Virus record (IMG/VR): IMGVR_UViG_3300015606_001334
Span: 160,001-224,000 of that record
Reading direction: 5' to 3' (one strand)
Source: a virus
Lineage: Duplodnaviria; Caudoviricetes
DNA length: 64,000 nt
A program made the position numbers and the translations under genes. Positions 700-15,384 of the stretch are shown piece after piece. The first letter of the stretch is position 1. Every line of letters starts with the position of its first letter. The notes under the pieces were generated by a model. The model was not told the DNA's origin and did not search any database. It worked only from the letters and a program-made list of their open reading frames with translations.

Positions 700-2190
700 T
701 TAGTCGTTGCGTTCACCATAAGCGCGAGCGCGAATGGTTTCAAGATCGGTGAATTCCTTGAACCAACCACAGTCGTAAATGACTTCCATGATGTCTTCCC
801 ATTCCGGATTGGTGGGTTCATCAGGGTTGGTCGGCAGGGTCATGATCTCGCCAGTCAGACGGCTACGGTAGGTGTTGAGGAAACCAGCCTTGGACTTCTT
901 ACCGGGATCGGTAATCGGGTCCTTGAAGATTTCTTGCCACTTACCATCGACCTTGATGGCGCAAACCTTCTGAGCGAACTTGTAGGTATCGCGGTTCAGC
1001 TTTTGCAGCAATGCACCACCAGAACCGAACACCAAGTTCTGCGCAGAGTAGCCAAGATCGGTCACCAGTTGCAGAATCTTGCGGATCATCTCGATGTCGA
1101 TGCCATCGCCTTGGATGACGCCAACAGTGTTGATGACCTTATAGCCCTTGCTGTTAACAGTGAAGCCGAAAGTTGCAGCTTGCATGTCAAGCAGACGAGG
1201 AATGACTTCCAGCGGATCACCACTGTCAGGACGGAAGACGATACGAGCGCCGGACTTTTCGATCTGTTCCTTGAATTCAGTGCAAAGCAGCATGGATTCG
1301 CGGTACACGTCGTAACCGTCGAGCACGATCGAAACAATCGCACCAGGTTTCGCGTAGGTATCGAGGATCTTCTTCAGATATTCGCGTTGACGTTTCGGAC
1401 CGAACGAACACTGGATGCTGTGCTCAGTTGCAGGAACCGAGAAAGCAGCCATCGTGCAGTTGTAGTAGAAATTCGCAGCACGGATACCAGAGATGGTGTC
1501 AGAGCCAGTGAAGTTGACCAAGTGGGCCATGCCGCCGATCTGGGCGGATTCTTCAGAACTTACCCCACGGCCGCCAAAGTCATGCAACATGAACGGCAGA
1601 CCAGGATACTTGCCACGAAGGGTCGTTGCACCAGGAACCGGATCAACAGAGAGTTCGAAGAACTGTTCGATCACCTTGCGGATTTCGTAGTCCATCGAAG
1701 CAATCGTGGTCGGATACCAAACGGCACGCTGCATGGAAGTTTCGAGGTAGGAGGCAATCCATGCGACTTTCTTGTCTTCGCAGGTCGCGACATACAAGGC
1801 GTTGGCAGAAGGAATGGGGATACCTTCCTTGACGGCCTTGATCTTGAGGGGAATGAAGCCGTTGTACTTTTCGACGATGTATTCCCAAGGTTCACGGTCA
1901 AACGGTTCACCGTGGGCCTTTGCGAAATCTTCAGCTTCGTCGATCATGTCGATCGTAATCGGAGTGGAGAGGCGTTTGCGAATCCACATTTGGAGACCGA
2001 TCGGAACGACGATCTTGCCCTTGATGCGCGGCTCACCGTACGAAACTTGACCTTCCATCTCGTCCGGATAGACGGGACCGTGGGACAGTTTGTAGGAATC
2101 GGCGTCGAGGATGAAGTTTACCCCAAGAACATTGGGATTTTCGCGTTGGATTTGGCGACGGATTGCACGAGGCAGATCATTAAAATTCAT
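700..2190 (-). CDS. nadV: nicotinamide phosphoribosyltransferase (NAMPT)
   Basis: DADSYKLSH, WYPTTIAS, LHDFGGRG, SVPATEHS, FRPDSGDP, IQGDG, FGSGGALLQ, KDPITDPGKKSK motifs of NAMPT. Confidence 0.96.
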   Translation of the reverse strand: MNFNDLPRAIRRQIQRENPNVLGVNFILDADSYKLSHGPVYPDEMEGQVSYGEPRIKGKIVVPIGLQMWIRKRLSTPITIDMIDEAEDFAKAHGEPFDREPWEYIVEKYNGFIPLKIKAVKEGIPIPSANALYVATCEDKKVAWIASYLETSMQRAVWYPTTIASMDYEIRKVIEQFFELSVDPVPGATTLRGKYPGLPFMLHDFGGRGVSSEESAQIGGMAHLVNFTGSDTISGIRAANFYYNCTMAAFSVPATEHSIQCSFGPKRQREYLKKILDTYAKPGAIVSIVLDGYDVYRESMLLCTEFKEQIEKSGARIVFRPDSGDPLEVIPRLLDMQAATFGFTVNSKGYKVINTVGVIQGDGIDIEMIRKILQLVTDLGYSAQNLVFGSGGALLQKLNRDTYKFAQKVCAIKVDGKWQEIFKDPITDPGKKSKAGFLNTYRSRLTGEIMTLPTNPDEPTNPEWEDIMEVIYDCGWFKEFTDLETIRARAYGERND

Positions 2191-2774: not shown

Positions 2775-2986
2775 TATCGTTCTCCGAGCGAGGCATTGTG
2801 GAGGTTCACAATATGCGAAGCCACCTCACGACCAAGATTGAAGGCGATGGCAATTTGCATGTTAACAAATTTGAACTCCAGCTTAACCTTGTACTCTTCT
2901 TCTGTAAAGATAGAGCTATCTTTTACGGTCCAGCGGACCTTACGAACATCAACACTCATCTTCTTCATCTCCATAGAATTCTTCAA
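2774..2986 (-). CDS. hypothetical protein
   Basis: 70-aa ORF overlapping purA-like 3' end; start uncertain. Confidence 0.5.
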   Translation of the reverse strand: MKNSMEMKKMSVDVRKVRWTVKDSSIFTEEEYKVKLEFKFVNMQIAIAFNLGREVASHIVNLHNASLGER

Positions 2987-4220
2987 TATGTTGCGGATTC
3001 ATCAACCTGCCTTCAGTGATGAGGTAGTCTTCTTCACCATGACACATAACCACATGAGAAGCATTGATGCGTGTACCAAATTCCGCAGCGAAAACCTTAG
3101 GTGAAAACATGTAAGGCCTACCATCAAGTACTGCGGGAAAACCATTTTCGCCAACAGCTTGATCTAGACAGGTAATAGCCAAAGAAATTCTACCAATCCT
3201 TTTTACAGGAACTTTGAACTGGTCCTTCAAGATCCGAGCGATCGCATCATCGATATCAAGAATGGCGAGTCGCAGAGAACCTTGGAATTCATGCGGCTTG
3301 TTGGTTTCATCGACCACATTGAATAGGCGACCAAAGCCATCCTCTCCGTCGGTGATTTCACGCTTCAACGGTCCTGCGCCATGGCGGGTGAGGTACGGTC
3401 GGGTCACATAAGCAAGGTTGATAGGATCATCAATCTTTGCGGTGTCAAGAACACGGAGGACATTGTCGATACCAGTGAAAGACCTCGTCACATGAGGAAA
3501 ATCCGCAGACTCCTGATCGAGTGCCAGTCCTTGAGCACCTTCAAAAACGAGGTTATCAAACTGATTCAATGCCTCAGCCTCATCCATGACGATTACCCGC
3601 TCAAGGAAAGCTCGACATTGTAGCTCATATTGATGGTAGACATGGCGCAGATTCCCCATCACGACGTTGTCGATGCCGAGTTCTGCCAATCTCATTGGTA
3701 TGTACTCACCAAGGATGGCATTGATCTTCATGCAAAGGGTAGGACGATGGATGATGTCCTCAACCGTCAGTTGAAAATCGCAATAGTCGTAACCATGGCG
3801 TTCGACAGTCTCACCGAAGCCAACACCAACTGAGCCATGTCGGCCATCGCCTCGTGCACGCTCAATCTCTTGATTGATAAACATATCCCATGGTGTAGTG
3901 ATGGGACATTTCGGATCCACGTAGATGTCAGGCCTGATGACTCCCTTTCGGATCAGCTCGTTGTTCTCCTTCATGAACAGGTACGGAGAGCAGACGAAAT
4001 CCTTCGTCAAGATGGTAGGGATGTAGTCAAAGCTTCCAGAGCCGAAGTGCGAGAACACATGGCGCTGACGACCACTGACGACCGTATGTCCTGCTTGGGC
4101 ACCACCATTAAATCGGACGACTGCGCACTTGTCGTAATTTTTAGCGGCGAAGTAGTTGGTCATACGACCTTTACCTTCGTCGCCGTAGTTGGCGCCAATG
4201 ACGACTTGAATATTTTTCAT
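2949..4220 (-). CDS. purA: adenylosuccinate synthetase-like protein (divergent PurA family)
   Basis: GANYGDEGKG P-loop with catalytic Asp, RFNGGAQAGHT, FEGAQG, FPHVTRS, LTRHGAGP. Confidence 0.85.
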   Translation of the reverse strand: MKNIQVVIGANYGDEGKGRMTNYFAAKNYDKCAVVRFNGGAQAGHTVVSGRQRHVFSHFGSGSFDYIPTILTKDFVCSPYLFMKENNELIRKGVIRPDIYVDPKCPITTPWDMFINQEIERARGDGRHGSVGVGFGETVERHGYDYCDFQLTVEDIIHRPTLCMKINAILGEYIPMRLAELGIDNVVMGNLRHVYHQYELQCRAFLERVIVMDEAEALNQFDNLVFEGAQGLALDQESADFPHVTRSFTGIDNVLRVLDTAKIDDPINLAYVTRPYLTRHGAGPLKREITDGEDGFGRLFNVVDETNKPHEFQGSLRLAILDIDDAIARILKDQFKVPVKRIGRISLAITCLDQAVGENGFPAVLDGRPYMFSPKVFAAEFGTRINASHVVMCHGEEDYLITEGRLMNPQHIEEFYGDEEDEC

Positions 4221-8162: not shown

Positions 8163-8347
8163 TTAATCTGATTTTTGATTCAAATAACTCAGATGTTCTT
8201 GAACCCTCTCGAACCATTCACGAACATAATGCTCGTACAATGATCCGAACTTTTTGACGGCTTCTTCAGCATCCCCGAACCAGGCTTCATTTACCCCTGT
8301 TCAAGAGGTTCAAACCATTCTTCAAAGCTTTTAAGCTGTTCAATCAT
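8163..8347 (-). pseudogene. small gene apparently broken by a 1-nt deletion in a G run
   Basis: MIEQLKSFEEWFEPLEQG* continues in the -1 frame as VNEAWFGDAEEAVKKFGSLYEHYVREWFERVQEHLSYLNQKSD*. Confidence 0.4.
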
Positions 8348-8970
8348 TTAGGTGCTACCTTTCGAAATTCGGTTGAGAGATTATTGTAGACAATTCGGAA
8401 CTTCTCGTCAATCTCTTCCCAAGTTTCACATGACATCACGTCGTAGTACTCTAGATTCTTTGACGTGATGTCATGGATTTTACCAGTCGTCGCTAGCTGA
8501 ATACCAAAATCGATAATACGAATTGCGTGCCAAGCAGACTTCTTACCAATAAGCGGCGCATAGTCTTCTGGAACTTTCAGCTTCTTCTTAGCTTTTACCC
8601 AGCTATTCGAAGCCTTACGAGAAATACTTTCGCGTAACATAGGCAGAGAAATCTTAGGCATCGCATGCATCTTGCCATATACCAAAGTGCCATTAATGCT
8701 ATAAGCGCGAACGTTGTTGACACATTCAAGGAATGAAATTTCCATTCCATCCAAGCCCCTGAGAAACTCTTCCTCAGTGTAGAGATTTACGTCAAACTTC
8801 GAGAATGAAAGCTGGAAGTATTCCCTTGCAATGGCAATAGCACGAGATTGAATGGTGACATCATCTTTACGATCAACAATAACGATTAAATCGAAATCTG
8901 ATCCAGGTTGAGCGGTCCCATAAACTGTTGAACCGTAAAGATAAATTGAAATGATATTAGCGGATGCCAT
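8344..8970 (-). CDS. DNA pol beta-superfamily nucleotidyltransferase
   Basis: IYLYGSTVYGT...SDFDLIVI (hG[GS]x9-13DhD) and downstream FDVNLY; start set at MASANI. Confidence 0.8.
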   Translation of the reverse strand: MASANIISIYLYGSTVYGTAQPGSDFDLIVIVDRKDDVTIQSRAIAIAREYFQLSFSKFDVNLYTEEEFLRGLDGMEISFLECVNNVRAYSINGTLVYGKMHAMPKISLPMLRESISRKASNSWVKAKKKLKVPEDYAPLIGKKSAWHAIRIIDFGIQLATTGKIHDITSKNLEYYDVMSCETWEEIDEKFRIVYNNLSTEFRKVAPK

Positions 8971-9529
8971 ACTTAAGTTTGAGTTCCTTGATCTTGTCAT
9001 CCCAATTATAATCTACTGCCATGGAAATTGACATAGGAACTTCATCTTTAGCTTCATCATGTGACCACAACAATTGATATTTACCATTTGGTGTTTCATA
9101 AACCTGATCGTGACAATGCAGCGAATTACCTACCGAAATCGGTTCGAGTTTGAGAGTGTTAATGTAGTTGAAAATTTCCCATCTTCCCCGCTCACTCTCA
9201 ACTTCTTCCCATCGAGTTTCGCCATTTAGACGTCTGAGGAAATTTAGATTCTTAAGTTCCTTTTCATATTCGATTTCTTCAGGAGTTGGTTCCTTAACCT
9301 CTTCCATAATCAAACGGAACTTGACAATCTCGCAATCTTCTACTTTGTAACGTCCCCAACGAGACTCATTCTCAAGGGACTTCGTCGCTACCTTAGGAGA
9401 GTTGTAGACTGAAGGGATATCGGTCTCGTAGAACGAATGACCAGGAGTTTTCTTCAGATACCTACCAGTTGGAATATAACGAATGGCGTACTGAAAAACT
9501 TCCTTATTTGGAACAATAGACTTAGTCAT
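8957..9529 (-). CDS. hypothetical protein
   Basis: ORF coupled to upstream stop (TAATG). Confidence 0.6.
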   Translation of the reverse strand: MTKSIVPNKEVFQYAIRYIPTGRYLKKTPGHSFYETDIPSVYNSPKVATKSLENESRWGRYKVEDCEIVKFRLIMEEVKEPTPEEIEYEKELKNLNFLRRLNGETRWEEVESERGRWEIFNYINTLKLEPISVGNSLHCHDQVYETPNGKYQLLWSHDEAKDEVPMSISMAVDYNWDDKIKELKLKYGIR

Positions 9530-9861: not shown

Positions 9862-10740
9862 TTACGTCCATAAACTCCTACGAATCTTGATGAGGCGAAT
9901 GAGCATCTCTTCATCTTCTTTTTCGTATGCTTCTTCGATTTCATTACAGGCGATACTACATTTGCGACCTTCTTCAGCGAGGTCTGGGGACTGGTCATTT
10001 AGTCCTGCCAGGAAATCTCCATCATGACGTTCTTCGAGCTTTTTGAAATATTCGGAATACCCAGAAGCGTCATGAGGATCAGGTCGCTGTGGACGAATAT
10101 GCTTCCACCAATGGTACAACTCAAACTGTTCTTTAGCCGCTTCGGCCTGCCCGGTCAACTTCCCATAATCTCCGGATTCTTTAGCTTGTTGGATTGATTC
10201 TTCATCATTACCATACCAGCTATCATCCTTAACGAGGGACATTTCCCATTCAAGGTACTCGATTCCTGCCAAGGGATGACGCTTCTCGCTTGCGAACCAA
10301 TTCAGCCAACCATTCATCTCGTACCATTTGTAGCCATACTTCTTACGATTTTCGTCCTGGCCCCAAATGACGTGCATCCATGCTTTTTCGATTTCGATAA
10401 AGTCTACCAATGTTTCAAACATCCCATGGAGAATACGAGTGTCGACTTCATGATACTGCCAAGGATTTAACTTTGTCGGAAGATAGTGGTATTTGTCGAA
10501 GTACTTGGCATTAATCGCACAACGAAGATCCCACAGCTTATCTTTCGGCCAACAAAAGAAATCTTGGATCTTGTTGAAAGCAGTGTCAGTCAACCAATGA
10601 ATAAAGGGCGCTTTGCCCTCACTCATTTCTCTCCAAAGCTTCCAATCTTCGCTAGTCAAAGCGTGTGGATTGGTTAAGCCAAATTTTACACGGAGCCAAT
10701 GAGCAAAGCTGCTATTGCTCCAATAATTGATACGACTCAA
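9862..10740 (-). CDS. hypothetical protein (Trp-rich)
   Basis: 292-aa ORF ending MLIRLIKIRRSLWT. Confidence 0.75.
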   Translation of the reverse strand: MSRINYWSNSSFAHWLRVKFGLTNPHALTSEDWKLWREMSEGKAPFIHWLTDTAFNKIQDFFCWPKDKLWDLRCAINAKYFDKYHYLPTKLNPWQYHEVDTRILHGMFETLVDFIEIEKAWMHVIWGQDENRKKYGYKWYEMNGWLNWFASEKRHPLAGIEYLEWEMSLVKDDSWYGNDEESIQQAKESGDYGKLTGQAEAAKEQFELYHWWKHIRPQRPDPHDASGYSEYFKKLEERHDGDFLAGLNDQSPDLAEEGRKCSIACNEIEEAYEKEDEEMLIRLIKIRRSLWT

Positions 10741-11051
10741 ATTACGATTTCCTTTAGAAATTCAGACCGTGGCAAATTCTGGAATGCCTTCGACTCGTCA
10801 AAGTACATGACGGTCCAGTCTGGTAGATTTTGTTTCAATTTGAACGCAAGAGCGTAGCCATTCTTGGCAAAGAGCTGAACATCAAACAGATCTTCTTCGA
10901 GCGAAACGCGATCGTATTCTGCTTGCCATTCAGTGATCATTGATTTCAGCCAATAATGAATTGGTAGGTCGTTGATGTCAATATTAGTCCCATTTTCGTC
11001 CCATACTCCAGACGAACAATAATCAGCCATTAGTCGGACATATTTTGCCAT
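10737..11051 (-). CDS. hypothetical protein
   Basis: 104-aa ORF directly downstream of coaD. Confidence 0.65.
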   Translation of the reverse strand: MAKYVRLMADYCSSGVWDENGTNIDINDLPIHYWLKSMITEWQAEYDRVSLEEDLFDVQLFAKNGYALAFKLKQNLPDWTVMYFDESKAFQNLPRSEFLKEIVI

Positions 11052-11052
11052 T

Positions 11053-11583
11053 TTAACTTTCCTTCTTTTCTAATTTCTTTTTAAACTCGTCAACGATAAT
11101 AGGATCAACGTACTGCTCGACGATTCGTTCCCAACCTTGGAAGCCAACAAGACCCTTCACTGTAGAAGAGCTGACTTCCGTCATAGCTGAAGGAGGGATG
11201 AAGAAAACGGTCTCAACATTCGGGTTGATCTTGCGATTGACTTGCTGAATCTGTGATTCGTAGTTGAAGTCTTCTGTGTTGCGAATACCGCGGAAGATAT
11301 ACGAAGCTCCAATCTTACGAGCGTGGTTGATTAGCAACTCATCGCTGATAGTTTCAATGACAATGTTCTCAAACAGCGAAACTGGAAGAGTATTGTGAAG
11401 GACTGATCGGATTTGTTGCTCACGCTCCTCAACAGAGAAGTAACCTTTCTTCGCTGAGTTCGTGCCAATTACGACATGGAGTTTTCCATCAGGAGCAATC
11501 ATGCCTCCAGCAGCTCGAATCAGCCACATGTGACCGAGAGTAATTGGGTCGAATGAGCCTGCAACAATTCCAATCTTAGCCAT
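11053..11583 (-). CDS. coaD: phosphopantetheine adenylyltransferase
   Basis: AGSFDPITLGH, FRGIRNTEDFNYE, ETVFF, VSSSTVK motifs. Confidence 0.93.
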   Translation of the reverse strand: MAKIGIVAGSFDPITLGHMWLIRAAGGMIAPDGKLHVVIGTNSAKKGYFSVEEREQQIRSVLHNTLPVSLFENIVIETISDELLINHARKIGASYIFRGIRNTEDFNYESQIQQVNRKINPNVETVFFIPPSAMTEVSSSTVKGLVGFQGWERIVEQYVDPIIVDEFKKKLEKKES

Positions 11584-11585
11584 TT

Positions 11586-12032
11586 TTATTTCCGAATTTC
11601 GATATCAGGGACGATTGCAGCCGGCTTAAACGTAACACGATAGTTGTACTGGCTGACGTTGGACGGTTCCATTTGTTCAGCGAAGTAGGTCACGTTTTCA
11701 GAAATGCCGAGGAAGCTCTTCTTAAAGCTGTTCGGACCAGTCTTGCAGGTAACAGCTACCGCCTTGGTTTCAGAAGCGCTGCCAATCGAGCAGAGACCTT
11801 CGATAACCAGCATATACTCGCCGTTCATGGTGTTGTAGAAAACAATTCGACGATTGATTTCGAAATTGTCGGCAGCCTTCTTCAAGTTGTCTGAAGCAAT
11901 TTGCGCATCACTACACCCAACTGCTAGTATACCAATCAGACATGCTGAAATAATGATAGTCAGAATATTCGTTATCTTCTTGTGAGTTTTCATTTCTTGG
12001 TTCATTTCAATCTTTCTTTTGTAGTTGCTCAA
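11586..12032 (-). CDS. putative lipoprotein
   Basis: Hydrophobic signal ending LAVGC lipobox; true start likely downstream of 12032. Confidence 0.7.
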   Translation of the reverse strand: MSNYKRKIEMNQEMKTHKKITNILTIIISACLIGILAVGCSDAQIASDNLKKAADNFEINRRIVFYNTMNGEYMLVIEGLCSIGSASETKAVAVTCKTGPNSFKKSFLGISENVTYFAEQMEPSNVSQYNYRVTFKPAAIVPDIEIRK

Positions 12033-12660
12033 TTAGTATCTTGACATTTTCACGTCCGATTTGTTCCCAACCTGCATCTTTGGCAAATTCAGAAAAGTAC
12101 AGCTTTGGTCGTCCCAAGAAGCTTTGAAGGACTTGGGTACGGCCATGAGAATAAATCTCGTCATTGTATTGAGAGAATTCTTTACGAATGTCCTTCTCAA
12201 ATTGTTGTAGACGTTTTTCAGTTTCAGAAAGAATTCGAAGATCTGCATCAAGGAACATTTTGATGTCTTCAATTTCGGCTTCGGAGAACTTTCCACGATT
12301 TCGAACTCGATCAAGAGTATGACCTTTAGTGCAGCCGATCATCGCCAAAGCTAGACGAACGGTCCGATATTCGGGATCATCAATGTCAAGATCCTTCAAA
12401 TGAGGATTGTCTTCTTCAATCTTTTCGAGAAACATTCGACACGAGTTGATTTCATTGTGCTCATAGGCTTCATCAACTTCGTAGACGATATCATGAAATT
12501 CTGCAGCAAGTTCAGCAGCTCTAAAGTTACTGAACTTGTGCTTCATTAGATACAGAGTATCAAGCACATGACAAACATGTGCGTAGTTATGGTAGTGTCG
12601 ATGCTTCCTGCTAAGCTCTTTAAGCAGAAACTTTCGAGTCTTGTCGCTGATCTGCAACAT
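12007..12660 (-). CDS. HD-superfamily metal-dependent phosphohydrolase (COG4339-like)
   Basis: RHYHNYAH, FHDIVY, TKGH, FLDADLRIL, IRKEF. Confidence 0.85.
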   Translation of the reverse strand: MLQISDKTRKFLLKELSRKHRHYHNYAHVCHVLDTLYLMKHKFSNFRAAELAAEFHDIVYEVDEAYEHNEINSCRMFLEKIEEDNPHLKDLDIDDPEYRTVRLALAMIGCTKGHTLDRVRNRGKFSEAEIEDIKMFLDADLRILSETEKRLQQFEKDIRKEFSQYNDEIYSHGRTQVLQSFLGRPKLYFSEFAKDAGWEQIGRENVKILIEQLQKKD

Positions 12661-13288
12661 GGAAGAAAACCTTTCTGAACTTGTGCTTCATTAGGTCGGT
12701 TACATGAACATCACAATGACCATGAGTATTGTCGATGACGTAATCGGCGTTTTCAATCTTGTACTGTTGAGGTACTTGAGTTGACATTATATCACGAACT
12801 TTTTCTTCTGTAAACCCGTCGCGATTTTTGACGCGTTGTACACGAACTTCGTCGTCAGCTGCAACCACGATAACCTTGACCTTGGTTCGAACCAATTGCA
12901 TTTTGGTAGAGAGCTTCTTCATCTCGAAGAACATTGGCATCTCGATCACCATGGTATTCACAGGCTTACGATTTACCAGTTCGATGAATTTGTCTTCAAC
13001 CAGCTTAAAGAAGAATTGGTTGAGCTCATCCAGGAGAATTTTGGTTGTTTCGGTTTTACCAAGCTGTCGACTCTGATTGAACACGATGTCGCTGATTTCC
13101 TTTTTATCGGAGGTGCCAAACATCGTTTTCAGGAACTGCTTGACATCCTCTCGTTCGTACAACTCTCGAGTGTAGTCATCAAAATTGAAGAAGCCAACTT
13201 TGACTTCAGAACTCCGCTTAATGGACTCGATCACGCTCGACTTGCCGGAACCGATCCCGCCAGTAATTACAATGGTTTCAATTTTCAT
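12620..13288 (-). CDS. coaE: dephospho-CoA kinase
   Basis: ITGGIGSGKSSV P-loop, IEMPMFFE, RVKNRDG, IMSTQ, ADYVIDN. Confidence 0.9.
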   Translation of the reverse strand: MKIETIVITGGIGSGKSSVIESIKRSSEVKVGFFNFDDYTRELYEREDVKQFLKTMFGTSDKKEISDIVFNQSRQLGKTETTKILLDELNQFFFKLVEDKFIELVNRKPVNTMVIEMPMFFEMKKLSTKMQLVRTKVKVIVVAADDEVRVQRVKNRDGFTEEKVRDIMSTQVPQQYKIENADYVIDNTHGHCDVHVTDLMKHKFRKVFFHVADQRQDSKVSA

Positions 13289-13564: not shown

Positions 13565-14227
13565 TTATTTTGGAAACTTCAAACCTGTCTTGATGTTGAT
13601 CTTGTCGATAGTTGTGGAATGGACGCCAGAGGTTTCGTTGTTGTCTGCGTAGAAAGCTTTCGAACTTCCATCCGATAGATAGATAATTTTATAATATCCC
13701 GCCGGAATTGGAACAAGATTTACAATTTTTTCATCACCTTCATAAACTGCACCAGTGACTACATTGATCGGCTTTTTGCCAGCGATAGCCATCTTACGAG
13801 TCAAATGCTCAAGCTTCTTCCATTGGCCGCGATTTAGCTTTGGATCTTGTGGAGTCATGTTCGTCATGAGGTAAGTATCGAACATTTCTTCTGGTGAAGT
13901 TGAATCGTCAGAAGGGACCAAATGACCCTTATCTTTCTGGGTTCCTGCATAAACAGCAGGCTTTACAGGATCTTTTAGTCGCTTATCTGCGTGGAACGAA
14001 TTCTTGCGGGACAAATCATGTCCGCTTGGTTGAAGCAGCTCAGAAGAGAATAGAGCACGTTTGTTATCGTCGTCGTATTGGGTAACGAAGAATGAATTGC
14101 AAAGCTCAACTGCGCCCTTTGGTTGGATGGTTTTACCATTTGGGTAAAATTGCGGACATGAAGCAAAAGCCACTCCACTAATTAGTAGCAGAATGTCCAG
14201 AATGAGAAATTTTTTCAAAATGTTCAT
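13565..14227 (-). CDS. secreted DNA/RNA non-specific endonuclease (NucA/EndA, beta-beta-alpha-Me)
   Basis: DKGHLVP, TYLMTNMTPQDPKLNRGQWKKLE, IPAGYYK; N-terminal signal peptide ending AFA. Confidence 0.88.
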   Translation of the reverse strand: MNILKKFLILDILLLISGVAFASCPQFYPNGKTIQPKGAVELCNSFFVTQYDDDNKRALFSSELLQPSGHDLSRKNSFHADKRLKDPVKPAVYAGTQKDKGHLVPSDDSTSPEEMFDTYLMTNMTPQDPKLNRGQWKKLEHLTRKMAIAGKKPINVVTGAVYEGDEKIVNLVPIPAGYYKIIYLSDGSSKAFYADNNETSGVHSTTIDKINIKTGLKFPK

Positions 14228-14289
14228 AAGTAATCCTAAACAAGAAAAGGAGAGAAACACTCTCTCCTTCTCTTATTTACTTCAGTCGG

Positions 14290-15384
14290 TTAGAGATTAC
14301 CAACCAACTTTTGCACGATGAATGAGTGATCTTCGAACATCATGTTTTCCATTTGCTTGAACTCAGCAAGAGGGACCCATTTGACTCGAGTTACATCACA
14401 TTCAGGATCGGTGTTACCTTGCTGTGAACCCTTGACTTTCGGCAGACCTTCTGGAACGGCATCCAAAGCGAAGTAGAAACCGAAGGTAACGGTACGACCG
14501 CGAAGAGAACGCTCAGGATCGTCGAAGTAATCGCGATTCTTGACTGAACCACGAAGTTTGGCTTCAGGAACCTTGATCTTCGTTTCTTCTTGCAGCTCAC
14601 GGATGACGGCATCGAAGATACGTTCTTTCGGATTCACGAAGCCGCCAGGCAGAGCCCAAAGACCTTCACCAGGCATAGCACCACGACGGACAAGAAGAAT
14701 GTGACCGGCTTGGATTACCACTGCATCAACAGTGATAAAAGTCGGTTCATAAGGAGCGGCTTCCCAAGCGCCCTTATACTTCTTGACATGTTGGTATTCT
14801 GATCGGAAACGGTCAGCTTGATCGCGCTCAGTCGAGAAGAATTCTTCGATCCAGTGCATTGCTGCACGAGGGATGTCATTGCGAATCGATTCAGGAAGAG
14901 CGTGAACGTTCAGGTAACCAGTGGATTCAAACAGGAAGTTGCGAATTTCAGTTGCGTTGATCTTGCCGAATTCTTCGATTTCGACACGTTCCCACTGAGG
15001 GAAAAGGTCAAGGTAGAAGGAGGTGTGATCACGCTTGAAACCGATGATGCCGATCTTTGCATCATCTTTGTCGGTCTTGACGTTGACGACAGCTTGAACT
15101 TCAGACAGCCAAAGTTCATCGTTGTACGGATAGTCGTGGATCGGTACGACCTTGACGCGCTTTTGTGAAATGCCTTCATCCTTGAGAACGGCACGAATCA
15201 TGTTTTCACGTTGTTGTGCAGTCCACGGGTTACGGATGTTATTTGCGCGATTGCTACTGCCAAGAAGAATGAGAACTTCATCAGCTTGGTCGAGAGCGGC
15301 CTTCAGAGTTTGAAGGTGACCGTTGTGAAATGGTTGAAAACGGCCGATGTAGACGATGCTGTCGAACTTGCGAGTCTTAGACAT
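14290..15384 (-). CDS. nadM: bifunctional NMN adenylyltransferase / Nudix ADP-ribose pyrophosphatase (NadM-Nudix, NatV-like)
   Basis: YIGRFQPFHNGH, RNPW, INATEIR; Nudix box GGFVNPKERIFDAVIRELQEET; RSLRGRTVT, FEDH. Confidence 0.95.
   Translation of the reverse strand: MSKTRKFDSIVYIGRFQPFHNGHLQTLKAALDQADEVLILLGSSNRANNIRNPWTAQQRENMIRAVLKDEGISQKRVKVVPIHDYPYNDELWLSEVQAVVNVKTDKDDAKIGIIGFKRDHTSFYLDLFPQWERVEIEEFGKINATEIRNFLFESTGYLNVHALPESIRNDIPRAAMHWIEEFFSTERDQADRFRSEYQHVKKYKGAWEAAPYEPTFITVDAVVIQAGHILLVRRGAMPGEGLWALPGGFVNPKERIFDAVIRELQEETKIKVPEAKLRGSVKNRDYFDDPERSLRGRTVTFGFYFALDAVPEGLPKVKGSQQGNTDPECDVTRVKWVPLAEFKQMENMMFEDHSFIVQKLVGNL

What the first reader, a model, noticed from the sequence alone, without database searches (positions are those of the whole stretch)
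11053..13288. Candidate phage CoA-reconstitution operon: coaE - HD hydrolase - lipoprotein - coaD
Seen: overlapping or abutting genes for dephospho-CoA kinase, an HD phosphohydrolase, a lipoprotein and phosphopantetheine adenylyltransferase, 1 kb from nadM-Nudix. No coaA/B/C in the window. Established: CoaD plus CoaE are the two steps from 4'-phosphopantetheine to CoA. Phosphopantetheine is what Nudix CoA pyrophosphatases and the HD-related ACP phosphodiesterase AcpH release. Inference: by analogy with phage NAD reconstitution pathways, this rebuilds CoA after a CoA-cleaving host defence, or harvests it from holo-ACP. The HD enzyme could supply phosphopantetheine or remove 3',5'-ADP. This would predict a CoA-depleting immune effector.
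Basis: partly seen in the sequence, partly recalled or inferred. Interest (0 to 1): 0.85.

Follow-up and report, generated by a model that had tools for sequence, protein, structure and literature searches.

The report
Phage coenzyme A finishing gene module
A 360-kb uncultured jumbo phage carries the last two enzymes of coenzyme A synthesis together with an uncharacterised phosphodiesterase-like HD enzyme. The same trio recurs, often as fused proteins, in many unrelated giant phages, so the link is real, but nothing yet shows that it counters a host defence.

Summary
On the minus strand lie CoaE (12620-13288), an HD-type hydrolase (12007-12660), a VG64-family lipoprotein (11586-12005) and CoaD (11053-11583). 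CoaD and CoaE both score above NCBI's equivalog cut-offs for PPAT and DPCK. The whole 359,550-bp phage has no coaBC, no type I or III PanK, no ACP and no PPTase.

New here: the HD protein belongs to a very large uncharacterised family (at least 14,000 clusters). Its predicted fold is closest to class I cyclic-nucleotide phosphodiesterases. In phage contigs it sits beside or is fused to CoaD and CoaE in every order (CoaD-CoaE|HD, HD-CoaD, CoaD-HD, CoaE-HD). In 79 bacterial genome loci it is never beside them. The lipoprotein is an unrelated mobile insert, absent in one close relative. CoaE-CoaD pairs also recur next to NadM-Nudix, Nampt and PurA in other jumbo phages.

Best reading: an auxiliary module that turns host 4'-phosphopantetheine into CoA, with the HD enzyme handling a pathway phosphoester. 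Which one is unknown.

The counter-defence idea has no support. I found no known CoA-depleting effector, no PADLOC match and no sequence link to AcpH.

This scan had already noted the same HD+CoaD/CoaE association on other DNA (phages, CPR bacteria, an archaeon). coaD and coaE are listed as viral AMGs in the literature.

The parts
12620..13288 (-). coaE: dephospho-CoA kinase (222 aa), P-loop GGIGSGKS
   Evidence: TIGR00152 scores 72.6 bits against a cut-off of 65.55. Pfam CoaE gives 6.9e-17. All 12 PDB sequence hits are DPCK, best 2if2 at 2.7e-7.
12007..12660 (-). HD-superfamily hydrolase of the uncharacterised 'predicted HD phosphohydrolase' family (217 aa). Its start overlaps the coaE 3' end by 41 nt.
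   Evidence: No Pfam hit; phrog_19425 at 9e-17. Invariant residues are H24, H28, H56-D57, H114, D138 and D140. The AF2 model has pLDDT 96.2. Best folds are PDE9A at Z 14.3 and PDE2A at Z 14.1, then HD hydrolases at Z 10-12.6.
11586..12005 (-). Phage_VG64-family lipoprotein or membrane protein. Probable start is ATG 12005; the ORF is open to TTG 12032. It is a mobile insert, not part of the conserved unit.
   Evidence: PF25682 scores 161.9 bits. The gene is absent between HD and CoaD in L006. It occurs in 938 phage records at up to 60% identity. The start-region sequence is shown.
11053..11583 (-). coaD: phosphopantetheine adenylyltransferase (176 aa)
   Evidence: TIGR01510 scores 135.5 bits against a cut-off of 103.3. 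All 34 PDB hits at E <= 1e-5 are PPAT, best 1o6b at 2.5e-22. P13, G17, H18, K45, G99, R101, D105, S138 and S139 are invariant and S140 is nearly invariant among phage copies.
12786..12814 (-). Sigma-70-like promoter match inside coaE, about 125 nt upstream of the HD start (TTTACA-17-TATAAT with TG, 11 of 12 positions)
   Evidence: Consensus scan only. The number of sites in the region is no higher than in shuffled sequence, so function is unproven.
14290..15384 (-). Context: NadM-Nudix (NMN adenylyltransferase / ADP-ribose pyrophosphatase), with a hairpin at 14250-14264 after its stop
   Evidence: NF003786 scores 408.2 bits against a cut-off of 397.
700..2190 (-). Context: Nampt (NadV), which completes NAD salvage together with NadM
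   Evidence: PF04095 at 7.2e-46 and NAMPT_N at 1.3e-16.
2949..4220 (-). Context: adenylosuccinate synthetase-like PurA
   Evidence: PF00709 at 4.1e-40. PurA recurs beside CoaD in L147 and L218.

Best explanation
This is a phage auxiliary 'CoA-finishing' module. CoaD adenylylates host 4'-phosphopantetheine to dephospho-CoA. CoaE phosphorylates that to CoA. This bypasses the host's own control of these two steps and keeps the CoA and acyl-CoA pool up during infection.

The HD protein is a dedicated third component of the module. It is a metal-dependent, phosphodiesterase-like hydrolase that acts on a phosphoester of this pathway. My preferred guess (about 35-40% among the options) is that it frees 4'-phosphopantetheine from a bound form such as holo-carrier protein or a CoA-derived conjugate, and so feeds CoaD.

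The VG64 lipoprotein is an unrelated mobile gene that landed inside the operon. The module is part of a recurrent phage 'adenine-cofactor island' with Nampt, NadM-Nudix and PurA.

Shown: the enzyme family assignments, the absence of upstream CoA genes, and the repeated adjacency and fusion of HD with CoaD and CoaE.

Inferred: the substrates, the direction of flux, the HD reaction and the benefit to the phage.
For: Family identity:
- CoaD and CoaE exceed the equivalog cut-offs and match only PPAT and DPCK structures.
- Invariant residues among the aligned phage CoaD copies include H18, K45, R101 and S138-S139. By my recollection of E. coli PPAT these are its catalytic positions.

Pathway entry point:
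- The 359,550-bp phage has no coaBC, PanK I/III, ACP or PPTase. The only possible entry point is therefore 4'-phosphopantetheine.

Conservation of the trio:
- CoaE-HD-CoaD is conserved in relatives whose HD proteins are 55-73% identical (L004, L006, L008). The lipoprotein is optional.
- Distant IMG/VR phages show several arrangements:
  - a CoaD-CoaE fusion next to HD (L010, L038, L160, L178);
  - HD-CoaD fusions (L045, L046, L049);
  - a CoaD-HD fusion (L165);
  - a CoaE-HD fusion followed by CoaD (L145);
  - adjacent or nearby separate genes (L053, L026, L150).
- 4 of 5 long proteins (404 aa or more) that carry this HD domain also carry CoaD and/or CoaE domains. One is a 598-aa CoaD-CoaE-HD protein.
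- In a tree of the HD domains, the window's close relatives (L004, L006, L008; the window's own copy was not in the tree) form a supported group with CoaE-HD fusions (SH-aLRT 95). The linkage is more clustered than in any of 500 shuffles.

HD protein:
- All HD metal-ligand positions are invariant.
- The model is confident (pLDDT 96) and fits phosphodiesterase folds over its full length.

Wider context:
- CoaE-CoaD lies beside NadM, Nampt or PurA in 10 further IMG/VR contigs and beside PurA in one NCBI-assembly contig, L218.
- coaD and coaE were reported with NAMPT and nadM among the most abundant viral AMGs in snow viromes (PMC11097641).
Against: - No biochemical or expression data exist. The phage is uncultured and its host is unknown.
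- The HD reaction is wholly inferred. The family has no characterised member and no solved close relative.
- The HD protein shows no detectable sequence relation to AcpH.
- In 79 bacterial genome loci the same HD family is never near CoaD or CoaE. The family's general function therefore need not concern CoA.
- Only 9 of the 80 best phage CoaD loci have HD within 5 kb, so HD is an accessory, not an obligate partner.
- CoaE passes its cut-off only narrowly (72.6 against 65.55).
Confidence: 0.65

Rival explanations
1. Counter-defence reconstitution. A host immune effector cleaves or depletes CoA on infection. The trio rebuilds CoA from the fragments, as NARP1 and NARP2 do for NAD+.
For: The module sits 1 kb from NadM-Nudix and in the same 15 kb as Nampt. 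CoaE-CoaD is found near NAD-salvage genes in at least 9 other phage contigs. It starts from exactly the fragment that pyrophosphatase cleavage of CoA would leave. From my own knowledge, not checked here, phage Nampt+Nmnat pathways were shown to counter NAD-depleting defences.
Against: Three full-text searches found no CoA-depleting defence system. None of the four proteins or their neighbours gave a significant PADLOC match. The same HD+CoaD-CoaE unit occurs in metagenome contigs with a cell-like gene context. Earlier unchecked notes of this scan place it in CPR bacteria, a DPANN archaeon and an alphaproteobacterium, where counter-defence makes no sense. Linkage to NAD genes is equally expected for plain cofactor supply.
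Confidence: 0.12
2. Same CoA-finishing module, but the HD enzyme does not supply substrate. It clears a by-product or tunes the pathway. Candidates are: hydrolysing 3',5'-ADP; hydrolysing Ap4A made as a side product by the adenylyltransferase (the NadD-YqeK logic); hydrolysing pyrophosphate to pull the reversible PPAT step; or removing the 3'-phosphate of CoA as a brake.
For: Fold matches are to nucleotide-binding phosphodiesterases (PDE9A, Z 14.3) and nucleotide-directed HD hydrolases (YpgQ Z 10.2, YqeK Z 7.5, small alarmone hydrolases about Z 7). Conserved arginines R21, R159, R174 and R203 suit a polyphosphate nucleotide. The NadD-HD precedent appears as a weak hit of NF005519, a 361-position model named nicotinate-nucleotide adenylyltransferase. 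That this family is a NadD-HD fusion is my recollection.
Against: No direct evidence. A by-product scavenger would not obviously need to be fused to both enzymes in all orders. Hosts already have enzymes for 3',5'-ADP and PPi.
Confidence: 0.2
3. The enzymes do not serve the CoA pool. The CoaD-like, CoaE-like and HD proteins make or remodel another adenylylated molecule, for example dephospho-CoA for RNA 5' capping or an RNA-end or nucleotide modification.
For: In 14 distant phage loci the neighbours of the module include RNA ligase (3), PNKP (2), CCA-adding enzyme (2), Ro60 and PTH2. CoaE is only just above its cut-off.
Against: CoaD scores 135 bits on the PPAT equivalog model against 34 bits or less on every other adenylyl- or cytidylyltransferase model. 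Its PDB hits are exclusively PPAT, and CoaE's are exclusively DPCK. RNA-repair genes are common in the accessory regions of jumbo phages generally, and no single RNA gene recurs in most loci.
Confidence: 0.06

Closest known systems
Bacterial CoaD (PPAT, TIGR01510; e.g. B. subtilis 1o6b, E. coli 1b6t) and CoaE (DPCK, TIGR00152; e.g. A. aeolicus 2if2)
   Same: Both score above the equivalog cut-offs. The motifs are conserved: TxGH with H18, K45, RGxR and SSS in CoaD; the GxxGxGKS P-loop in CoaE. The lengths are the same.
   Different: They are encoded by a virus. They are adjacent, whereas in bacteria the two genes are usually unlinked (my knowledge). They bracket an HD hydrolase. Identity to solved enzymes was not computed here. 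The phmmer matches are 2.5e-22 for CoaD and 2.7e-7 for CoaE, and tblastn identities to annotated phage and bacterial copies are 30-38% (CoaD) and 22-30% (CoaE).
Eukaryotic CoA synthase (COASY), a bifunctional PPAT/DPCK
   Same: The last two CoA steps are coupled in one unit. Several phage relatives carry a true CoaD-CoaE fusion (L010, L038, L160, L178).
   Different: In the window the enzymes are separate proteins. The phage and bacterial PPAT type is used. From my knowledge, COASY has no HD partner.
NadD-YqeK (NaMN adenylyltransferase plus an HD-domain Ap4A hydrolase, clustered in Firmicutes and fused in mycoplasmas)
   Same: An adenylyltransferase of a cofactor pathway is paired or fused with a small HD hydrolase. 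YqeK appears among the fold matches (8wmy, Z 7.5).
   Different: The HD family is different: Z is only 7.5 against 14 for PDEs. The cofactor is different. Here a kinase is also part of the unit.
Phage NAD+ salvage and reconstitution (Nampt + Nmnat, as in KVP40 NadV/NatV; NARP2)
   Same: Both are phage-borne short salvage routes for an adenine cofactor starting from a breakdown product. The two are physically linked in this phage and in other jumbo phages.
   Different: For NAD the depleting immune effectors are known. For CoA none is known. No experiment exists for the CoA genes.
AcpH (E. coli ACP phosphodiesterase) and PptH (M. tuberculosis phosphopantetheinyl hydrolase)
   Same: These are the only known enzymes that release 4'-phosphopantetheine from holo-carrier proteins. 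That is the activity that would best complete the module.
   Different: There is no sequence relation to AcpH (hhalign probability 0.3%; no Pfam ACP_PD hit). PptH belongs to another superfamily, the metallophosphoesterases (my recollection; PMC8557913 appeared in the list but was not read). The resemblance is in proposed function only.

Membership tests
PPAT / CoaD (TIGR01510) | Score above the curated equivalog cut-off, and best match among nucleotidyltransferase families | tested here: met
   135.5 bits against a cut-off of 103.3. The next families (cyt_tran_rel, NadR, NadD) score 34 bits or less.
PPAT / CoaD (TIGR01510) | Catalytic motifs: (T/H)xGH with His18, Lys42-equivalent, RGxR, and the C-terminal SSS phosphate-binding motif | tested here: met
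   P13, G17, H18, K45, G99, R101, D105, S138 and S139 are invariant and S140 is nearly invariant in 11 phage copies. They align with B. subtilis and S. aureus PPAT.
PPAT / CoaD (TIGR01510) | Adenylylates 4'-phosphopantetheine | not testable with these tools
   Needs an enzyme assay or complementation.
DPCK / CoaE (TIGR00152) | Score above the curated equivalog cut-off | tested here: met
   72.6 bits against a cut-off of 65.55, a narrow margin. Uridine, adenylate and guanylate kinase models score 25 bits or less.
DPCK / CoaE (TIGR00152) | P-loop GxxGxGKS, and DPCK-type lid and CoA-domain alignment | tested here: met
   GGIGSGKS lies at residues 10-17. Full-length alignment to 2if2 and 1uf9, and all 12 PDB hits are DPCK.
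DPCK / CoaE (TIGR00152) | Phosphorylates the 3'-OH of dephospho-CoA | not testable with these tools
   Needs an enzyme assay or complementation.
HD superfamily of metal-dependent phosphohydrolases | H...HD...D metal-ligand signature on an all-helical core | tested here: met
   H24, H28, H56-D57, H114, D138 and D140 are invariant in 20 sequences. The model is all-helical. Z is 10-12.6 to the HD hydrolases 2pq7, YedJ and YpgQ.
HD superfamily of metal-dependent phosphohydrolases | Match to Pfam HD (PF01966) | tested here: not met
   The window protein has no Pfam hit at E <= 0.01. One relative (P0021) carries PF01966, as do 11-16% of members of two look-alike Atlas clusters. I file it as a divergent HD-superfamily member by motif and fold, not as a PF01966 member.
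Class I cyclic-nucleotide phosphodiesterases (PF00233) | Sequence membership in PDEase_I | tested here: not met
   No Pfam hit. The similarity is in fold only: Z 13-14.3 over about 205-212 residues at 11-15% identity, rmsd 4.0-4.6. For helical proteins a Z near 14 is not decisive.
AcpH (ACP phosphodiesterase, PF04336) | Detectable homology to AcpH | tested here: not met
   No Pfam ACP_PD hit. hhalign of the HD profile against E. coli AcpH gives probability 0.3%.
Phage cofactor-reconstitution counter-defence (NARP-like) | A known immune effector destroys the cofactor, and the pathway restores it and rescues infection | not testable with these tools
   No CoA-depleting effector was found in the literature searched. 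PADLOC gave no significant hits. Rescue needs experiments.
Phage_VG64 (PF25682) | Score above the gathering cut-off | tested here: met
   161.9 bits against a cut-off of 27, covering residues 23-147.

The most novel reading that the evidence does not exclude
The trio is a true CoA reconstitution pathway, selected because some bacterial immune effectors (or phage-triggered host Nudix or HD enzymes) destroy CoA or strip carrier proteins during infection. The HD enzyme would then be the first characterised member of a family of at least 14,000 clusters and would define a new class of 4'-phosphopantetheine-releasing phosphodiesterase.
Probability: 0.1. Interest if true: 0.9.

Novelty: new variant of a known kind. 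Interest (0 to 1): 0.55.

Why it matters
Phage-borne coaD and coaE are listed in AMG catalogues, but their purpose is unknown. The HD partner has not, to my knowledge, been described.

The repeated adjacency and fusion give the first concrete, testable functional lead for a very large uncharacterised HD family (18,824 clusters at 50% identity). They also show that jumbo phages assemble cofactor islands that cover NAD, CoA and AMP.

If the HD enzyme releases 4'-phosphopantetheine, phages would be converting the host's carrier-protein arm into CoA. That would be a new way of reprogramming lipid and acyl metabolism. If a CoA-depleting defence exists, this module would be the handle to find it.

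Tried and rejected
- megablast of the region against 50,697 phage records found no match. The phage has no close cultured relative, and the best NadM identity is 44%.
- Sequence search of the HD protein against the PDB gave only spurious His-tag matches. Foldseek against the PDB gave no match at E <= 0.001.
- Bacterial gene context of the HD family: 79 genome loci showed no CoaD or CoaE and no partner conserved across genera. Clusters of recurring neighbours came from single genera, mostly Rothia.
- A Pfam scan of 10 long HD-containing proteins among the 150 best family members found no known domain in their extra regions. Those regions are not similar to one another.
- Complex prediction of CoaD with HD gave no answer (score 0.01, mark 0.32). 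This is neither for nor against binding.
- The PADLOC scan of eight proteins gave nothing significant.
- A literature search for 'COG4339' found no paper. One search failed on a term that was too short.
- p104 and p292, downstream of CoaD, are syntenic only within this phage clade and are not part of the general module.
- I considered chance adjacency of HD and rejected it because of the fusions.
Full report
**What is there.**

The window is bases 160001-224000 of a 359,550-bp IMG/VR virus record. All of the genes below are on the minus strand.

- CoaE, 12620-13288, 222 aa.
- An HD-type protein, 12007-12660, 217 aa.
- A VG64-family lipoprotein. The ORF is open from 12032, but the likely start is the ATG at 12005, one base after the HD stop.
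- CoaD, 11053-11583, 176 aa.

CoaE and HD overlap by 41 nt. The other junctions are 1-2 nt.

The co-directional run is longer than the four genes. Upstream it includes a signal-peptide-bearing non-specific endonuclease (13565-14260) and an 88-aa ORF. Downstream it includes p104 and p292. NadM-Nudix (14290-15384) lies 1 kb upstream and is followed by a hairpin. Nampt (700-2190) and a PurA-like gene (2949-4220) are in the same 15 kb.

**Enzyme identities.**

CoaD scores 135.5 bits on the PPAT equivalog model (cut-off 103.3), against 34 bits or less on every other adenylyl- or cytidylyltransferase model. CoaE scores 72.6 bits on the DPCK equivalog model (cut-off 65.55), against 25 bits or less on nucleoside and nucleotide kinase models.

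Against PDB sequences, all 34 CoaD hits are PPAT (best 2.5e-22) and all 12 CoaE hits are DPCK (best 2.7e-7). H18, K45, R101, D105 and S138-S139 are invariant and S140 is nearly invariant among eleven phage CoaD copies.

CoaE's margin over its cut-off is small.

**Only the last two steps are present.**

Family searches of the whole phage record find no coaBC, no type I or type III PanK, no ACP and no phosphopantetheinyl transferase. Positive controls ring in well-known genomes. The pathway can therefore only start from 4'-phosphopantetheine supplied by the host.

**The HD protein.**

- It matches no Pfam family and no solved structure by sequence.
- Its relatives are labelled 'predicted metal-dependent HD superfamily phosphohydrolase' or carry the old misnomer 'NMDA receptor 2C subunit'.
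- The family is very large. There are 18,824 clusters (at 50% identity) at E <= 1e-3 and 14,048 at E <= 1e-10. Most members are stand-alone proteins of about 205-215 aa.
- The positions H24, H28, H56-D57, H114, D138 and D140 and several arginines are invariant.
- An AlphaFold model is confident (pLDDT 96.2).
- An exhaustive structural comparison puts class I cyclic-nucleotide phosphodiesterases first (PDE9A Z 14.3, PDE2A Z 14.1, about 205-212 residues aligned, 11-15% identity). HD hydrolases of unknown or nucleotide-directed function follow (2pq7 Z 12.6, YedJ 10.6, YpgQ 10.2, YqeK 7.5).
- For helical proteins a Z of about 14 is suggestive, not decisive.
- A profile comparison with E. coli AcpH finds nothing (probability 0.3%).

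**The key new result: HD, CoaD and CoaE form a recurrent unit.**

*Close relatives.* Three relatives from sewage metagenomes have HD proteins 55-73% identical to the window's. All keep CoaE-HD-CoaD. The lipoprotein is absent in one and is separated from CoaD by an extra gene in another.

*Distant phages.* Of 46 IMG/VR loci holding an HD relative, 11 have CoaD within 4 kb. Of the 80 best CoaD loci (out of 206), 29 have CoaE and 9 have HD within 5 kb. Curated models confirm the domains. The architectures cover every order:

| Architecture | Loci |
|---|---|
| CoaD-CoaE fusion next to HD | L010, L038, L160, L178 |
| HD-CoaD fusion | L045, L046, L049 |
| CoaD-HD fusion | L165 |
| CoaE-HD fusion followed by CoaD | L145 |
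| CoaE-CoaD fusion with HD 4 kb away | L150 |
| Separate genes | L053, L026 |

*Long proteins.* A search for proteins of 404 aa or more that carry this HD domain found five. Four also carry CoaD and/or CoaE domains, and one is a 598-aa CoaD-CoaE-HD protein.

*A non-viral-looking context.* A metagenome contig shows a 416-aa CoaD-CoaE fusion whose stop overlaps the HD start. Its neighbours are NrtR-like Nudix, Macro and R2K ATP-grasp genes.

*Tree of HD domains.* The window's close relatives (its own copy was not in the tree) group with CoaE-HD fusions (SH-aLRT 95). The 'linked' state needs 14 changes on the tree. Well-supported branches force at least 3 of these. It is more clustered than in any of 500 shuffles.

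*Two cautions.* The 'alone' label is leaky, because some 'alone' phages carry CoaD elsewhere on the contig (L013 and L191 are on one contig). None of 79 bacterial genome loci holding the best HD relatives has CoaD or CoaE nearby. The link is therefore a property of part of the family.

**The lipoprotein.**

It belongs to Pfam Phage_VG64. tblastn finds it in 938 phage records, at 50-60% identity among the best dozen, in phages of Mycobacterium, Paenibacillus, Erwinia, Vibrio and Pseudomonas. Together with its absence in L006, this makes it a mobile insert and not a pathway component.

**Cofactor island.**

CoaE-CoaD pairs lie within 5 kb of NadM-Nudix, Nampt or PurA in ten further IMG/VR contigs (L136, L137, L139, L140, L141, L144, L146, L147, L185 and L196). 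CoaD alone does so in L166, L175 and L218. A published virome study lists coaD and coaE together with NAMPT and nadM among the most abundant viral AMGs and states that their purpose is unknown (PMC11097641).

**Interpretation.**

The best-supported reading is an auxiliary CoA-finishing module. From established knowledge (not tested here), 4'-phosphopantetheine accumulates in and is excreted by E. coli, and PPAT is feedback-inhibited by CoA. A phage PPAT+DPCK would therefore convert an existing host pool into CoA.

The HD enzyme is tied to these two enzymes by gene fusion and must act on something in their chemistry. My preferred guess is that it releases 4'-phosphopantetheine from a bound form. 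Clearing a nucleotide by-product or acting as a regulatory phosphatase remain real alternatives.

The counter-defence reading is not excluded but has no support:
- no CoA-depleting immune effector turned up in three full-text searches;
- PADLOC gave nothing;
- the unit also occurs outside viruses (and earlier notes of this scan that I did not verify).

Neighbours of the module in 14 distant phage loci are heterogeneous: RNA ligase, PNKP, CCA-adding enzyme, phosphoribosyltransferases, R2K ATP-grasp. They point to no single extra partner.

**Limits.**

A CoaD+HD complex prediction gave no answer. The host is unknown. The promoter-like site inside coaE (12814-12786) is a consensus match only.

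**Relation to earlier notes of this scan.**

The same association had already been noted on other DNA. I re-derived it independently for phages here. The cellular cases in those notes were not rechecked.

Noticed in passing
window 11586-12005 (-): The VG64-family lipoprotein is unusually conserved across phages of different bacterial phyla: 938 phage records match, with 50-60% identity among the best dozen. It is often annotated as 'recombination directionality factor', which looks like an annotation error for a lipoprotein or membrane protein.
   Followed up: partly
window 13565-14260 (-): A DNA/RNA non-specific endonuclease (PF01223, 1e-36) with an N-terminal signal-like hydrophobic segment sits between NadM-Nudix and coaE. 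In relative L008 it is replaced by a PLD-like nuclease and a GIY-YIG homing endonuclease.
   Followed up: no
window 12620-12660 (-): The 41-nt coaE/HD overlap is conserved in L006 and L008 (17 nt in L004). The nearest HD relatives outside the clade are true CoaE-HD fusion proteins (P0088, P0090, L145), so this gene pair is one frameshift away from a fusion.
   Followed up: partly
L136, L137, L139, L144, L146, L147, L175, L185, L196, L218: CoaE-CoaD or CoaD lies within 5 kb of NadM-Nudix, Nampt and/or PurA in many other large phage contigs. This is a recurrent island for adenine-containing cofactors.
   Followed up: partly
L219:4013-7039: In a contig that carries a protein named after Burkholderia ubonensis, a phage-like stretch has CoaD-CoaE (48% identical CoaD) followed by a Nudt16-like Nudix hydrolase. 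That is a family of nucleotide and cap pyrophosphatases that could act on CoA-like substrates.
   Followed up: no
metagenome contig of P0081; two of 14 phage loci: R2K-clade ATP-grasp genes recur next to the HD+CoaD-CoaE unit. In one contig NrtR-like Nudix and Macro-domain genes are also nearby, which hints at a tie to ADP-ribose/NAD-related systems.
   Followed up: no
window 9862-11051 (-): p104 and p292 follow CoaD in all three close relatives but occur nowhere else among the loci examined. Atlas look-alikes of p292 are viral hypothetical proteins.
   Followed up: partly
window 8344-9000 (-): A nucleotidyltransferase (NTP_transf_2 / Pol-beta type, 2e-9) is conserved a few genes downstream of CoaD in all close relatives.
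   Followed up: no
ESM Atlas row 4: In Actinomycetota the same HD fold is fused to DUF4031 (361 aa). This second fusion partner is of unknown function.
   Followed up: no
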